From Naegleria gruberi (lineage: Eukaryota): a DNA stretch of 8,169 bases. The notes beneath the pieces are model-generated. The model had not been told where the DNA came from. It was given only the letters and a program-made list of their open reading frames with translations, and ran no database searches. The position numbers and the translations under genes are program-made. Positions 2 to 3,962 of this stretch are shown here, in pieces. The first letter of the stretch is position 1, and each line of letters opens with the position of its first letter. Location of the stretch: NCBI GenBank assembly GCA_000004985.1, contig GG739085.1. The stretch is one strand, 5' to 3'.

Positions 2-772
2 GCTGGAGTGGTTGCCTATGCCATTACTGATTATTCNAGTTCATTCTTCTCCTCTGCTGTTTTCATGTTGTGTTTGGTTGTAATTTTTGTTTGCGTAATT
101 ATTGGACTTTTCATTTATGGATTTAAAATTTATTGGAATTTGAGAAAGGTTTCGAGAATTAATTTTTTCCAATTCAGATTTACTAGATTTTTGGTGGCTT
201 CTTCATTCTTTGTAATATTTCCAGCATTTTACATGGTTTTTGATATTGCCACAAGTATTTATCAGAGTGAGAGTGGTCTGTATCCAAGTAATCGATTCTA
301 TTACTTGTATTCTCCATTTATTACAAGTATTTTCCTTCTAGCTTATGGATCTTCATTGATTTATGTTTTGTTTCCATCAATGAAATTATTAATGGAAAGT
401 TACCGATTGTTTGTGTATTGTACATTGTGTTGTTGTGGAAAATCACCAAGAGTTAAGGCATTTATGAAGAAACATCAAGAATATAGAGATGAATATGAAG
501 GTTCTTGGGATAATTTGTCTGAAAATGGAAGTGTACAAGTTGGAAGATTACCTTATTTAGTAACTAAGAGTCAAAAATCCTTAAAATCAGTCGAAGGAAC
601 AACATTTGACGATCTGAGCATTAATTTGAATCATTCCAGTATTACAATTAATGGAGAAAATTTACAAAATTTGGATGCCATTCCAGTAGATGATTCAATT
701 TATTATGAAAATCAAATTGATTCATCTCCAAAAACTGAAAAACAAAAAGAACTTTCACAACCACTTCTCTAA
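2..772 (+). CDS. multi-pass (7TM-like) membrane protein, C-terminal portion; 5' end is outside the window
   Basis: The frame is open from the window edge and ends at TAA 770-772. Three strongly hydrophobic ~22-28 aa segments (SAVFMLCLVVIFVCVIIGLFIYGF; FLVASSFFVIFPAFYMVFDIATSIY; YYLYSPFITSIFLLAYGSSLIYVLF) are separated by short loops. A Cys cluster (CTLCCCGKS) follows the last helix, consistent with a palmitoylation-type site. The ~120 aa hydrophilic tail is rich in Ser/Asn/Asp/Glu. Base 37 is an ambiguous N (one X in the protein). Family assignment (GPCR-like versus microbial-rhodopsin/Hsp30-like 7TM) is not resolved. Confidence 0.6.
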   Translation, partial: AGVVAYAITDYXSSFFSSAVFMLCLVVIFVCVIIGLFIYGFKIYWNLRKVSRINFFQFRFTRFLVASSFFVIFPAFYMVFDIATSIYQSESGLYPSNRFYYLYSPFITSIFLLAYGSSLIYVLFPSMKLLMESYRLFVYCTLCCCGKSPRVKAFMKKHQEYRDEYEGSWDNLSENGSVQVGRLPYLVTKSQKSLKSVEGTTFDDLSINLNHSSITINGENLQNLDAIPVDDSIYYENQIDSSPKTEKQKELSQPLL

Positions 773-774
773 TA

Positions 775-790
775 GACTTCCGGAAAAGTC
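775..790. repeat. left terminal inverted repeat GACTTCCGGAAAAGTC (contains the 8-bp palindrome TTCCGGAA)
   Basis: Direct reading. Its reverse complement GACTTTTCCGGAAGTC matches 1611-1626 apart from one extra T. Confidence 0.5.
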
Positions 791-800
791 AAAAAGAAAT

Positions 801-816
801 AAAAAGGCGCCTTTTT
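801..816. repeat. perfect 16-bp palindrome AAAAAGGCGCCTTTTT (left subterminal motif)
   Basis: Self-complementary on direct reading. The same GGCGCC core with a T-run recurs at 1554-1565 near the other end. Confidence 0.6.
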
Positions 817-998
817 AAAAAAGTGGTTTGAAAAATGTTTGAGCAATTTTTGAAATTTGTTTGAGCATAATTCAAGAAATGTTTAAACCTTTCCTGCACA
901 TTTATTGAAGCTTTCTTTTTCCTGATGTCAACCTTTTCTTTACTGCATTTGCTGAAGTTGAAAGGTTCCCTAATCTTGCTGATTCTATTGTTGATGGA

Positions 999-1310
999 AT
1001 GGAAGATGTTGAGGAAGTGGAAGAAAATCTTAATGAAACACCATATTCTGAATTAAGCATGAAACAGGAACAAGAAAAAAGTGTGAAACAAGAAAAAATC
1101 CAGAAGAGGAAGAGATCTGATTTGAACATCACTCCACCCAGAAAGAGAAAAAACCTGAACCTTATCAAAAAGAAAACAATCATCATGCCAAGAAAAGTTG
1201 AGGAGCCCAAAAGACCAGAGCTTTCGAAAGATTTCGTGATTGATGTAAAAAAATCCATCAAAACTACAGTGACCCGAGATGGTGACATTCAAAAACCTTG
1301 GATCTCTTAA
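999..1310 (+). CDS. small hypothetical protein (103 aa), acidic N-terminus and Lys/Arg-rich remainder with NLS-like KRKR and PPRKRKN motifs; lies inside the TIR-bounded element
   Basis: ATG at 999 in GGAATGG context, TAA at 1308-1310. The + strand is strongly purine-rich (GAA/AAG codons), consistent with the sense strand. There are no TM segments and the protein is low-complexity and charged. The frame is actually open back to 909 without another ATG. The antisense ORFs 902-1288 and 1053-1292 are low-complexity shadows. Small size and composition mean it could be spurious. Confidence 0.3.
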   Translation: MEDVEEVEENLNETPYSELSMKQEQEKSVKQEKIQKRKRSDLNITPPRKRKNLNLIKKKTIIMPRKVEEPKRPELSKDFVIDVKKSIKTTVTRDGDIQKPWIS

Positions 1311-1531
1311 GGAATTGGTGGATTTTTTGGAAAAGGATATAGTTAAGAAAGAGAGTGAGTTCAGAAGTTTGAGGGCCCTTGGGGTTTTTTCAGCAAATAC
1401 TTGAGCGTTTTGAGAATTTGGTTGAGAAATAATTAATCATTCTTGAGGAATTGTTTGAAAACAGTTTGAAAGTTGCTCAAGATTTTCTTGAACAAACTTT
1501 GGATGTGTTTCAAGTAGTTTTTAGGTAAAAA

Positions 1532-1565
1532 AGGCACCTTTTAGGCACCTTTTAGGCGCCTTTTT
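1532..1565. repeat. three tandem ~11-bp units AGGCACCTTTT / AGGCACCTTTT / AGGCGCCTTTTT (right subterminal repeats)
   Basis: Direct reading of 1532-1542, 1543-1553 and 1554-1565. The arrangement resembles reiterated binding-site motifs at transposon ends. Confidence 0.55.
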
Positions 1566-1590
1566 GCAAATTAGCGTGAAAGTACCTTAA

Positions 1591-1604
1591 AAAAGTCGAC
1601 TTTT
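1591..1604. repeat. perfect 14-bp palindrome AAAAGTCGACTTTT
   Basis: Self-complementary. It reiterates the AAAAGTC / GACTTTT half-sites of the element termini. Confidence 0.55.
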
Positions 1605-1610
1605 AGCAAA

Positions 1611-1626
1611 ACTTTTTCCGGAAGTC
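1611..1626. repeat. right terminal inverted repeat ACTTTTTCCGGAAGTC
   Basis: Direct reading. Pairs with 775-790 in inverted orientation. It is the second TTCCGGAA in the window, whereas about 0.1 occurrences are expected by chance. Confidence 0.5.
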
Positions 1627-1725
1627 TAATATTTAACAATATTTAAATACTAATTTGTAAACCACGTACTAATACACTCTAATATTATTACATTCAACCA
1701 TGTTCCGATTTCTTCTATCAAAAAA

Positions 1726-2463
1726 ATGTCTCTCGATCAAACTTCATCTCCACCACCTCCAGAATCCAACAATTTACTCTCCTGTTGTTCCTTCAATGTT
1801 CATCACTTCTCCACTGCATACGGAAGGAGTAACCTCACCGAATTATACAAATATTTGCATAAAAACAATTTCGACATTGTCTGCCTGAATGAAGTTTATG
1901 AAGATAGCGAGTATTCTCATCCTCTGAGAGATTTGGTTTATGCATTGAATTCATCATTACCTGAGGAGGTGGAAGTGGCTCGGCCCTATCAATATCGGTC
2001 TGGACCCACTAATTATGAGTCGAATATTATTCTGAGTAAATATCCAATTCTATTTCAGGAAAAGAAAGATGTTGGAAGAGGTGAAAGATCAGTACTTGGT
2101 ATTAAAATTGATCATCCATTGGTGAGGAATGTATTTGTGACTCATTTGGATCATGTGAGTGAAAATAAGAGAGTGTTACAATTGAAGAGAGTCTTGTCTT
2201 TTATGAAACACTTTATTGATAGGAAATTGGTGGATTATCCAAACGATGAGAATAAGAATTTCATTCTTCTTGGAGATTTTAATTCAATGAGAATGGATGA
2301 TTATACGGATAAGTTTTGGGATTATCTCATTAAGCAGAGAATTCAATATGGTTGGGAAGCTCCAGATACCCAAGTTACCTCCCTATTATTTAATGAACCA
2401 ACACCAGAAAGTCACTCCACAGAAGAAGCTGACGAACCTAAACTAAAAATGCCACTCGGGATG
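1726..2463 (+). CDS. endonuclease/exonuclease/phosphatase (EEP, DNase I-like superfamily) domain protein; 3' end lost in the assembly gap
   Basis: It is the first ATG after an in-frame TAA at 1651, in the context AAAAAAATGTCT, which matches the yeast consensus. EEP signature blocks appear in the correct order: CSFNVHHF (metal-binding Asn), DIVCLNEV (catalytic Glu), SNIILSKYPI, VFVTHLDH and ILLGDFNS. The C-terminal motifs (RIDY-like and SDH) are not visible and are presumably within the N run. Confidence 0.75.
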
Positions 2464-2779: not shown

Positions 2780-3523
2780 GATTCTGATTTTAAAAGATAT
2801 TTGGGATTGGGAGGTTTTGTTAGAGTGAGCATGTTTAAACCATGTGAATTGTTACAGATATTGATGAGAAATTTACACATCAAGGAGTGTGAGAAAATTC
2901 ACAAAGTGCCATTCCACAAGTATTTACTCATTTCTTCTCTATTTCCAGTATTGGATTGTCATGGGATTCAAATCAGAATGGATGGTGAATGGAATCAAGC
3001 TTATTCCAATTCTAATAATTGTAATAGTGAAATTGAAAATGAAATTGCAGAGCTAAAAGTTTCACCTGGAAAATTACTCCTCTGGATGTGTAATCGTCCA
3101 GTGCATCCAAATGATGAATTGGAGGGATCTAGCGATGAGGAGGAAATTTACATAGATGGAGAGTATGAGAGTAGTAGCAGTGATGATGAGGAATATGCCT
3201 ATGTGGAGACTATCGAGAATATCAAATATAATCCTCCATGTGAAATATCTTTCAAACTAAAAGATGCTAAATGGAATCCATATGGAGAGAAATCATTGAA
3301 ATACCACTTGATTTCCAATAAGCCACATGAGGAAAGAGTGGAAGATTACAAAATGTGTGACATTTTTACATTTTGCTCAAGACCTCCAAGTAGTAACTAT
3401 GTTAGGAAGGGTCATGAAAAGAATTTTGAATTGGCTGTCAAGAAATTGAGAAGTAACTTGTTCAATAACTTTGAGAATATCTATACTCTCGATTGGTCTG
3501 GTACTATTTCAAGAAATAGGTAA
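2780..3523 (+). CDS. hypothetical protein with an acidic Ser/Asp/Glu cluster; the frame is open from the gap edge, so this is either the C-terminal part of the EEP gene or a separate gene starting at ATG 2831
   Basis: There is no stop between the gap edge (2780) and TAA 3521-3523. The TTG start at 2801 in the ORF track is only an ORF-caller convention. The protein contains DELEGSSDEEEIYIDGEYESSSSDDEEYAYVE (about 3111-3210), a textbook acidophilic-kinase (CK2-type) phosphorylation cluster, and codon usage is consistent with the neighbouring genes. No recognisable catalytic domain is present. VLDCHGIQI only weakly resembles the EEP SDH motif. Confidence 0.5.
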   Translation, partial: DSDFKRYLGLGGFVRVSMFKPCELLQILMRNLHIKECEKIHKVPFHKYLLISSLFPVLDCHGIQIRMDGEWNQAYSNSNNCNSEIENEIAELKVSPGKLLLWMCNRPVHPNDELEGSSDEEEIYIDGEYESSSSDDEEYAYVETIENIKYNPPCEISFKLKDAKWNPYGEKSLKYHLISNKPHEERVEDYKMCDIFTFCSRPPSSNYVRKGHEKNFELAVKKLRSNLFNNFENIYTLDWSGTISRNR

Positions 3524-3962
3524 GTTGCATTGTATTATTTCAATGTCATACAAAGTACATTTCTAATATATTTTGGAATGTTTTGGAATAGATGCTGGAG
3601 TATCTTTTGGCAAAAAGGATTGGAATGGTGGGGTTGTTTTGCCTTTACCTTATACAATATTGAAAAGGGTGTATTCATTGTTACTCTTGCATCAGAATCT
3701 GACTAAGTTTTCAATTCAATTTGGATCTATTATTTCCAACCTTGCCAAGTTCATTCCCATCTCAGATTTGATATTCTTATTTAAGGAAACCATCTACGGA
3801 CGGTATTATCTCAACAAGCATTTGCATCTCTCATATTCGAAATTTGTATTCAAATGTAAATCTTACTCAACCCAATTTACAATCATTCCATTCAAATATA
3901 ATTCCATTCCTTCCAATATTAACTCTCCACTAGTGCTAGTATTGAACTTGCTCCAACGACTA

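What the first reader, a model, noticed from the sequence alone, without database searches (positions are those of the whole stretch)
770..1631. An ~850-bp inverted-repeat-bounded insertion with a target-site-duplication-like TAATA, placed 2 nt after a stop codon
The termini GACTTCCGGAAAAGTC (775-790) and ACTTTTTCCGGAAGTC (1611-1626) are inverted copies, and TAATA flanks both (770-774 and 1627-1631). Each end also carries inward subterminal palindromes with A/T-run arms: A5-GGCGCC-T5 on the left, three tandem AGGCRCCTTTT units and AAAAGTCGACTTTT on the right. These look like reiterated protein-binding sites of a DNA transposon end. TIR DNA transposons are rare in compact yeast-like genomes. 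This copy replaces the native 3' flank of the upstream membrane-protein gene and occupies almost all of the intergenic space before the EEP gene. At 852 bp with one small ORF, it would be a non-autonomous, MITE-like element. Because the terminal motifs are themselves palindromic around CCGG, inverted orientation rests mainly on the outer GAC/GTC and the T-run/A-run lengths (2/4 on the left versus 5/2 on the right).
Basis: seen in the sequence. Interest (0 to 1): 0.65.

Follow-up and report, generated by a model that had tools for sequence, protein, structure and literature searches.

The report
Small non-autonomous DNA transposon in Naegleria
The flagged 852-bp stretch is a small DNA transposon that cannot move on its own, inserted just after a gene's stop codon in the amoeba Naegleria gruberi; a near-identical second copy beside an unrelated gene shows it is or recently was mobile, which is an ordinary kind of finding.

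Summary
Window 775-1626 is bounded by inverted termini, GACTTCCGGAAAA on the left and TTTTCCGGAAGTC on the right. That is 13 nt perfect, or 15 nt if the adjoining TA is counted.

The window is Naegleria gruberi, not a yeast-like genome. The upstream ORF is 100% identical to an N. gruberi predicted protein.

A Logan contig (ERR1078381, L001) carries the same element with 3 substitutions and no indels. Homology to the window stops exactly after ...GGAAGTC-TAATA. It then continues into a different gene, an eIF2D/SUI1 homologue that lies on another N. gruberi scaffold. That contig begins exactly at TA|GACTTCC.

The element has no transposase. Its only sizeable ORF is an orphan in 1.84 billion representative proteins and does not fold confidently.

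Best reading: a young, non-autonomous cut-and-paste TIR transposon moved in trans. Three points stay open:
- The duplication length: TA fits slightly better than TAATA.
- The superfamily and the autonomous partner.
- The copy number: only two copies were seen.

This is an ordinary new member of a known kind. Interest is low to moderate.

The parts
2..772 (+). 3' end of the upstream multi-pass membrane-protein gene. The native stop codon TAA is at 770-772.
   Evidence: 100% identical to P0003, 'predicted protein [Naegleria gruberi]', 894 aa. The C-terminus ...KELSQPLL* is conserved in N. lovaniensis as ...RELSLPFL*.
770..774 (.). Left flanking direct repeat TAATA. The candidate target-site duplication is either the whole 5 nt or only TA at 773-774.
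   Evidence: Contig L001 starts at the TA that corresponds to 773-774.
775..1626 (+). The element itself, 852 bp: a non-autonomous TIR DNA transposon.
   Evidence: Second copy in L001 with 3 substitutions, no indels and a different right flank.
775..790 (+). Left terminus GACTTCCGGAAAAGTC. The perfect TIR arm is 775-787.
   Evidence: (I2).
801..816 (.). Left subterminal palindrome AAAAAGGCGCCTTTTT, a putative binding site for a dimeric protein.
   Evidence: (I13).
826..868 (+). Left subterminal short repeats: an 11-bp period of GTTTGAAAAAT-like units that contains TTTGAGCA twice. TTGAG-type motifs recur at 1369-1447.
   Evidence: (D1).
909..1310 (+). Orphan ORF, 133 codons from stop to stop with ATG at 999, lysine/arginine-rich. 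It is not a transposase and is probably not a functional gene.
   Evidence: No Pfam family above threshold. The only relative is P0001, from the second copy. AlphaFold2 pLDDT 63 and pTM 0.17. The ATG at 999 is lost in the L001 copy through T1000C.
1384..1497 (.). Internal imperfect inverted repeat: 23-nt arms, 78% complementary, 68 nt apart.
   Evidence: I1.
1532..1564 (+). Three tandem 11-bp units AGGCRCCTTTT, the right subterminal repeats. They share their core with the left palindrome.
   Evidence: (D2).
1591..1604 (.). Right subterminal palindrome AAAAGTCGACTTTT.
1611..1626 (-). Right terminus ACTTTTTCCGGAAGTC. The perfect TIR arm is 1614-1626.
   Evidence: (I2).
1627..1631 (.). Right flanking TAATA. 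It is the last stretch shared with the second copy, and homology ends after 1631.
1726..2463 (+). Downstream ORF with an endonuclease/exonuclease/phosphatase domain. It runs into the N gap at 2464-2779 and is a neighbour, not part of the element.
   Evidence: Pfam PF03372, E = 2.4e-12.

Best explanation
Window 775-1626 is one copy of a young, non-autonomous class II (cut-and-paste, TIR) DNA transposon of Naegleria gruberi.

Shown:
- It has 13-15-nt terminal inverted repeats.
- It is flanked by a short direct repeat.
- It has no transposase gene.
- It exists in at least two places, next to unrelated genes, at 99.65% identity.

Inferred:
- A transposase encoded elsewhere in the genome binds the termini and the reiterated subterminal palindromes (AAAAG-NCGN-CTTTT type, and TTCCGGAA at the tips).
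- It pairs the two ends, excises the element and inserts it at an A/T-rich site, duplicating either TA or TAATA.
- TA is the slightly better fit. That would point to a Tc1/mariner-type partner, but the superfamily is not established.

Both known copies lie in the 3' flank of a gene: 2 nt after the stop codon in the window and about 27 nt after it in L001. They have opposite orientation relative to that gene. This is what surviving insertions in a gene-dense genome would look like. In the window, the element now supplies the whole 3' flank of the membrane-protein gene.
For: - Termini, flanking repeat and subterminal motifs are confirmed.
- A 13-nt inverted repeat plus a 5-nt flanking direct repeat appeared in 2 of 1000 simulated windows.
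- The second copy is L001, from Logan run ERR1078381. It has 3 transitions and no indels across the element. Homology breaks exactly after GGAAGTC-TAATA, and the contig starts at TA|GACTTCC.
- The L001 flank is an eIF2D/SUI1 gene. Its first 38 residues are identical to N. gruberi P0002, on a 362,555-bp scaffold. The window gene is P0003, on a 418,085-bp scaffold. The two copies are therefore at different loci.
- The element appears in two independent data sets, so it is not an assembly artefact.
- No transposase is present: Pfam finds nothing. The ORF is an orphan among 5.8 billion clustered proteins and among 1.84 billion representatives. It gives no confident fold.
- The orthologous intergenic regions of N. 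lovaniensis and of a metagenomic Naegleria-like contig show no similarity to the element.
- DNA transposons are reported in Naegleria genomes at low abundance (PMC6125883, PMC12344493).
Against: - Only two copies were seen.
- The left junction of the second copy is missing, because the contig ends there.
- No empty site, no excision footprint and no autonomous partner could be retrieved.
- Both right flanks begin TAATA. The flanking repeat may therefore reflect a target preference or be part of the element, rather than a freshly made duplication.
- The source of ERR1078381 (strain or sample type) is unknown.
- The TTGAG-type subterminal motifs are mostly in direct rather than inverted orientation at the two ends.
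Confidence: 0.8

Rival explanations
1. Same kind of element, but the insertion signature is a 5-bp TAATA, either a site-specific 5-bp duplication or a target pentanucleotide. This would place it outside Tc1/mariner, in a superfamily that is not recognisable from the ends.
For: The window copy has a perfect TAATA on both sides. The second copy also has TAATA after its right end. Under a TA-only model the extra ATA must match by chance or by target preference in both copies, roughly 0.04 each in this A/T-rich DNA (my estimate).
Against: Contig L001 starts at TA|GAC, not at TAATA|GAC. If that break was caused by the repeat, only TA is shared between left junctions. From my own knowledge, the known superfamilies with 5-bp duplications have different termini: Transib has CACWATG and Tdd-4/Ginger2 has TG...CA. 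This element starts GA and ends TC.
Confidence: 0.25
2. It is not a transposon. It is a recent ectopic or segmental duplication of an intergenic fragment that happens to end in palindromic motifs.
For: Only two copies are known. One junction of the second copy is unseen.
Against: The homology breakpoint falls exactly at the inverted terminus plus TAATA. The contig start falls 2 nt outside the other terminus. The ends are inverted copies of each other with a flanking direct repeat, seen in 2 of 1000 simulated windows. The two flanking gene contexts are unrelated and in opposite orientation relative to the element.
Confidence: 0.05
3. It is native intergenic DNA. The palindromes would be promoter or terminator elements of the flanking genes.
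For: It occupies nearly the whole space between two genes. A/T-run-flanked palindromes could be protein-binding sites of any kind.
Against: The same 852 bp sits beside a different gene in the second copy. There is no similarity in the orthologous intergenic regions of N. lovaniensis or contig L003, where other small genes lie instead. The motifs occur nowhere else in the window.
Confidence: 0.02
4. It is a tiny element that moves through single-stranded DNA, like IS200/IS605. It would insert 3' of a TAATA pentanucleotide, carry TAATA as its own right-end cleavage site, use hairpin ends, and encode its enzyme in the ~130-codon ORF.
For: The size (852 bp), a single small ORF, palindromic termini, and the same pentanucleotide at the left flank and the right end in both copies.
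Against: The ORF has no histidine at all, so it has no HUH motif, and it gives no Y1-transposase Pfam hit. The terminal hairpins are no more stable than in shuffled sequence, with z-scores from -0.07 to -1.3. The ends are genuine inverted repeats that abut the flank, without the spacing between hairpin and cleavage site that is typical of that family (my own knowledge). The start codon at 999 is lost in the second copy.
Confidence: 0.03

Closest known systems
Non-autonomous derivatives and MITEs of Tc1/mariner-type (TA-duplicating) transposons, for example Stowaway-like elements
   Same: Short TIRs, no transposase, and a TA dinucleotide immediately outside both termini. Insertion is in A/T-rich DNA next to genes. 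Mobilisation is presumed to be in trans.
   Different: The terminal sequence GACTTCCGG does not resemble the usual CAGT or TTAGG-type ends (my own knowledge). At 852 bp with long unique internal sequence, it looks more like a deletion derivative than a classic MITE. High copy number is not shown. A TA duplication is not proven against TAATA. No partner transposase was found.
Deletion derivatives with reiterated subterminal binding sites, such as Ds of Ac (hAT) or dSpm (CACTA)
   Same: Short TIRs plus several short repeated motifs within about 100 bp of each end. In those systems such motifs are transposase-binding sites.
   Different: No 8-bp (hAT) or 3-bp (CACTA) duplication fits the junctions. 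The termini are neither YARNG nor CACTA.
DNA transposons already reported in Naegleria: Kolobok (PMC9587614), and piggyBac and CMC-EnSpm as classified in N. lovaniensis (PMC6125883)
   Same: Same host genus and low-abundance class II elements. Kolobok ends are 5'-RR...YY-3', which GA...TC satisfies.
   Different: Kolobok and piggyBac make TTAA duplications, and there is no TTAA at either junction. CMC elements start with CAC.
IS200/IS605-type elements
   Same: Small size, palindromic ends, and the same pentanucleotide at the left flank and the right end.
   Different: No HUH/Y1 enzyme, hairpins that are not significant, and true inverted termini.

Membership tests
Class II TIR (cut-and-paste) DNA transposon, non-autonomous | Terminal inverted repeats at both ends | tested here: met
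   13 nt perfect, or 15 nt with the adjoining TA. The inverted alignment beats the direct one, 15 nt against 8 nt.
Class II TIR (cut-and-paste) DNA transposon, non-autonomous | Short direct repeat (target-site duplication) immediately outside the termini | tested here: met
   TAATA, or its TA, lies on both sides. A 13-nt inverted repeat with a 5-nt direct repeat occurred in 2 of 1000 simulations. The length of the duplication is unresolved.
Class II TIR (cut-and-paste) DNA transposon, non-autonomous | Copies at different loci that share the same ends and have unrelated flanks | tested here: met
   L001 has 3 substitutions over the element. Homology ends after position 1631. The flank is an eIF2D/SUI1 gene instead of the EEP gene. 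Only one junction of the second copy was seen.
Class II TIR (cut-and-paste) DNA transposon, non-autonomous | Empty (unoccupied) site in a strain or close relative | not testable with these tools
   The N. gruberi assemblies cannot be retrieved. N. lovaniensis and L003 lack the element but are too diverged, at about 46% protein identity, to read as empty sites.
Class II TIR (cut-and-paste) DNA transposon, non-autonomous | No functional transposase inside the element | tested here: met
   No Pfam family. The ORF is an orphan. No confident fold.
MITE in the strict sense | Small size (usually under 800 bp) and high copy number | tested here: inconclusive
   At 852 bp it is borderline. Two copies were seen. 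No other called ORF from any frame of the element exists in the protein collection. The genome-wide count is not obtainable.
Tc1/mariner/pogo superfamily | TA target-site duplication | tested here: inconclusive
   TA flanks both termini, and L001 starts at TA|GAC. TAATA fits the window copy equally well.
Tc1/mariner/pogo superfamily | An autonomous relative encoding a DD(E/D) transposase with the same TIRs | not testable with these tools
   No DNA search of the Naegleria genome is available. Scans of metagenome and viral contigs with the ends gave nothing or only chance hits.
Transib or Tdd-4/Ginger2 (5-bp duplication) | Characteristic termini: CACWATG for Transib, TG...CA for Tdd-4/Ginger2 | tested here: not met
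   The termini are GACTTCC...GGAAGTC. The family consensus sequences are from my own knowledge.
piggyBac or Kolobok | TTAA duplication | tested here: not met
   The junctions read CTCTAATA|GAC and GTC|TAATATTT, with no TTAA. The Kolobok features are from PMC9587614.
IS200/IS605-like (HUH, single-strand) elements | Y1/HUH transposase and stable subterminal hairpins in place of inverted repeats | tested here: not met
   The ORF has no histidine and no PF01797 hit. Hairpin z-scores run from -0.07 to -1.3.

The most novel reading that the evidence does not exclude
The element belongs to an undescribed transposon lineage that inserts specifically at the pentanucleotide TAATA. It would either make a fixed 5-bp duplication or use TAATA as both the target and the right-end cleavage site. 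It would recognise its ends through A/T-run-flanked 6-bp palindromes. No known eukaryotic superfamily combines a 5-bp site-specific signature with GA...TC termini.
Probability: 0.1. Interest if true: 0.65.

Novelty: new member of a known kind. Interest (0 to 1): 0.3.

Why it matters
Naegleria genomes carry very few transposons. One preprint classifies about 0.3% of N. gruberi as transposable elements (10.64898/2026.06.24.734286), and most of its repeats are unclassified (PMC12344493). A family whose copies differ by only 0.35% points to recent or ongoing DNA transposition in this model amoeboflagellate. It also gives a concrete handle, the ends and their binding-site-like palindromes, for finding the active transposase. 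The insertion replaces the whole 3' flank of a conserved membrane-protein gene 2 nt after its stop codon, so it may also affect how that gene's mRNA 3' end is formed. Beyond that, it is a routine annotation item.

Tried and rejected
1. Search for further copies. The protein collection was searched with the 103-aa ORF. It was searched again with a chimeric query that joined every ORF of the element in all six frames to parts of the flanking genes. Only P0001 and orthologues of the membrane protein came back.
2. Exact-product look-ups. The look-ups for the window ORF and for the N. gruberi proteins P0002 and P0003 failed. The reference assembly is not in that index.
3. Scans of public contig collections.
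   - JGI metagenome contigs, scanned with the left end and with the right end, gave 0 hits each.
   - IMG/VR viral contigs gave 0 hits for the 18-mer.
   - IMG/VR viral contigs gave 17 single hits for the 15-mer. None has any further similarity to the element, so they are chance matches.
4. Structured RNA. Rfam gave only sub-threshold chance matches.
5. Single-strand hairpin ends were rejected.
6. The bacterial promoter and terminator scan is uninformative for this eukaryote.
7. The ORF as a remnant of a DNA-binding or transposase domain: no family, no homologue and no fold.
8. Other duplication lengths. Lengths of 8 or 9 bp (hAT, Mutator) and 3 or 4 bp do not fit the junctions, except a 3-bp AAT if the TIR is taken to start at AGAC. 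That fits no known TWA-type target.
9. The truncated C-terminus of the reference eIF2D model (…LSRSST). I tested whether it is encoded in L001 or in the element. It is not.
10. Literature.
    - Searches for ERR1078381 found nothing.
    - A search for a set of guessed Repbase-style N. gruberi family names found nothing.
    - A search for papers linking Fanzor with N. gruberi found nothing.
    - The N. gruberi genome paper is not held.
Full report
**1. The observation**

- TAATA (770-774) precedes GACTTCCGGAAAAGTC (775-790).
- ACTTTTTCCGGAAGTC (1611-1626) is followed by TAATA (1627-1631).

The repeat finder reports the arms 770-787 and 1614-1631 as 94% complementary (I2). A local alignment gives 17 of 18 matches in the inverted orientation, of which 15 consecutive are perfect: TAGACTTCCGGAAAA. 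The core CTTCCGGAAG is itself palindromic, so I also compared the two ends by eye in the direct orientation. They share only TTCCGGAA there, so the inverted reading is the better one.

The subterminal motifs are confirmed:
- AAAAAGGCGCCTTTTT at 801-816;
- three tandem 11-bp units AGGCRCCTTTT at 1532-1564 (TRF, 95% matches);
- AAAAGTCGACTTTT at 1591-1604.

The degenerate pattern AAAGKCRMCTTT occurs 5 times, all inside the element, against 0.01 expected. CCGG occurs only twice in the 5.5 kb of non-N window, both times in the termini. GGCGCC also occurs only twice, both times inside the element.

A perfect 13-nt inverted repeat within 3 kb is common in sequence of this composition, at 445 of 1000 simulations. 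Together with a 5-nt flanking direct repeat it is rare, at 2 of 1000.

**2. Where the window comes from**

The window has about 32% G+C and contains two runs of N, so it is a draft scaffold. The ORF that ends at 772 is 100% identical to 'predicted protein [Naegleria gruberi]' (P0003, 894 aa, on a 418,085-bp scaffold). The host is therefore a heterolobosean amoeboflagellate, not a yeast-like fungus.

The stop codon at 770-772 is the native one. N. gruberi ends ...KELSQPLL* and the N. lovaniensis orthologue ends ...RELSLPFL*. The element starts 2 nt after it.

**3. A second copy**

The 103-aa ORF inside the element (999-1310) has one relative among 5.8 billion clustered proteins. It is an 83-aa product, 100% identical, on a 1,701-bp Logan contig of run ERR1078381.

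That contig (L001) begins exactly at TA|GACTTCCGG and runs through the whole element. It differs from the window copy by three transitions and no indels (window positions 1000, 1405 and 1429). It reads ...CCGGAAGTC-TAATA and then diverges completely from the window (99.65% over 859 nt).

The DNA that follows encodes, on the opposite strand, the C-terminal part of an eIF2D-type protein with WH_eIF2D and SUI1 domains. Its first 38 residues are identical to N. gruberi P0002, which lies on a different scaffold of 362,555 bp.

The same 852 bp therefore sits at two unrelated loci, and the breakpoint falls at the proposed terminus. In the window the left end abuts the stop codon of a + strand gene. 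In L001 the right end lies about 27 nt beyond the stop codon of a - strand gene. The orientation relative to the neighbouring gene therefore differs between the two copies. This rules out a gene-specific 3' module and an assembly artefact, because the two data sets are independent.

**4. What the element does not contain**

No ORF of the element matches a Pfam family. The stop-to-stop ORF of 133 codons (909-1307) has no relative other than P0001 among 1.84 billion representative proteins. It contains no histidine or cysteine. AlphaFold2 gives it pLDDT 63 and pTM 0.17. Its ATG at 999 is mutated in the second copy.

A chimeric query built from all six reading frames of the element found no further called proteins. 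Rfam finds nothing above chance. The element is non-autonomous.

**5. Orthologous loci**

In N. lovaniensis (L002) and in a metagenomic Naegleria-like contig (L003), the membrane-protein gene is followed by a conserved gene of 140-148 aa. N. lovaniensis has one further small gene there. Next comes the orthologue of window 2780-3703. Neither locus has any similarity to the element.

At about 46% protein identity these species are too distant to serve as empty sites. They show only that the element is not conserved intergenic DNA.

**6. The insertion signature**

Three readings fit the window copy:
- TIR from GAC with a TA duplication;
- TIR from GAC with a TAATA duplication;
- TIR from AGAC with an AAT duplication.

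Longer duplications of 8-9 bp and TTAA do not fit.

The second copy also has TAATA after its right end. A random 5-bp duplication is therefore unlikely. Either the target is specific (TA or TAATA) or the pentanucleotide belongs to the element.

Contig L001 starts at TA, not at TAATA. If that break marks the point where repeat copies begin to share sequence in the assembly graph, only TA is common to the left junctions. I therefore favour TA modestly, at about 0.55 against 0.25 for TAATA. This rests on one contig end and is an inference.

**7. Mechanism**

Shown: inverted termini, a flanking direct repeat, two nearly identical copies at different loci, and no transposase.

Inferred: a transposase encoded elsewhere recognises the termini and the reiterated palindromes. 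These have the form A-run, G, NCGN, C, T-run, and the tips carry TTCCGGAA. This is the layout expected for dimeric DNA-binding proteins. As single strands the ends form no hairpin more stable than shuffled controls. The transposase would excise and reinsert the element at an A/T-rich site.

The 0.35% divergence between copies implies recent movement.

**8. Comparison with known families**

The element works like a non-autonomous TIR transposon. The closest functional analogues are TA-flanked derivatives of Tc1/mariner-type elements and deletion derivatives with subterminal binding sites (Ds, dSpm). Membership of any superfamily cannot be claimed.
- The TA duplication is unproven and no partner was found.
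- piggyBac and Kolobok (TTAA) are excluded by the junctions.
- Transib and Tdd-4/Ginger2 (5 bp) are excluded by their termini.
- hAT, Mutator and CACTA are excluded by both junctions and termini.
- IS200/IS605-like elements are excluded by the lack of an HUH enzyme and of significant hairpins.

Naegleria genomes are known to hold a small complement of DNA transposons. In N. lovaniensis they make up 0.7-1.25% of the genome, with CMC-EnSpm and piggyBac classes reported (PMC6125883). Kolobok is reported in the genus (PMC9587614). In N. gruberi most repeats are unclassified and young ones are methylated (PMC12344493).

I could not check Repbase or Dfam, so this family may already be catalogued there.

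**9. Verdict**

The result is an ordinary one: a new or uncatalogued member of a known kind of element.

Four questions remain open: the duplication length, the superfamily, the copy number, and whether the family is still active. A whole-genome BLASTN of the element and a search for longer elements with the same ends would settle all four.

Noticed in passing
window 1628-1646: Directly after the right end of the element, the flank reads AATATTTAAC AATATTTAA, a 10-bp tandem duplication (TRF). It could be an old excision footprint of another element, or just A/T-rich slippage.
   Followed up: no
window 775-2463 compared with L002 11246-13124 and L003 6961-7647: Gene content between the membrane-protein gene and the F-box-like gene (window 2780-3703) differs between species. 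N. lovaniensis and contig L003 have a conserved 140-148-aa gene there (VLVEYSFRDFE...), and N. lovaniensis has one more small gene. N. gruberi instead has the transposon plus an EEP-domain ORF, and no trace of the small gene. The small gene could be hidden in the N gap.
   Followed up: partly
window 1726-2463 and 2780-3703: The EEP-domain ORF and the downstream region were read as one gene by the first stage. The N. lovaniensis orthologue of the downstream part has a different N-terminus with no detected EEP domain. They may therefore be two genes separated by the N gap at 2464-2779.
   Followed up: partly
window about 3521-3592: Probable short intron (gtaagt...atag) near the 3' end of the F-box-like gene. 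The reading frame resumes with CWSIFWQKGLEWWGCF..., and the N. lovaniensis orthologue is continuous there.
   Followed up: partly
window 1533-1549 compared with 806-811 and 1555-1560: Two of the three tandem units read GGCACC instead of GGCGCC. This is the change expected from deamination of a methylated CpG. N. gruberi is reported to methylate young repeats (PMC12344493). Both copies share the change, so it predates their separation.
   Followed up: no
window 1588-1626: The internal palindrome AAAAGTCGACTTTT has the sequence that a head-to-tail junction of the two termini (...AAGTC|GACTT...) would create. It may be coincidence, or a relic of an end-to-end junction.
   Followed up: no
L001 1-2: The Logan contig stops exactly 2 nt outside the left terminus but reads through the right terminus into unique DNA. 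This asymmetry is unexplained. It may reflect another family member that shares only the left end, heterozygosity, or low coverage.
   Followed up: no
P0002 (N. gruberi eIF2D model) compared with L001 889-1701: The reference gene model ends ...YLAARE-LSRSST and lacks the SUI1 domain. The Logan contig encodes that domain as a continuous ORF. The reference model is probably truncated or mis-spliced next to this transposon copy.
   Followed up: partly
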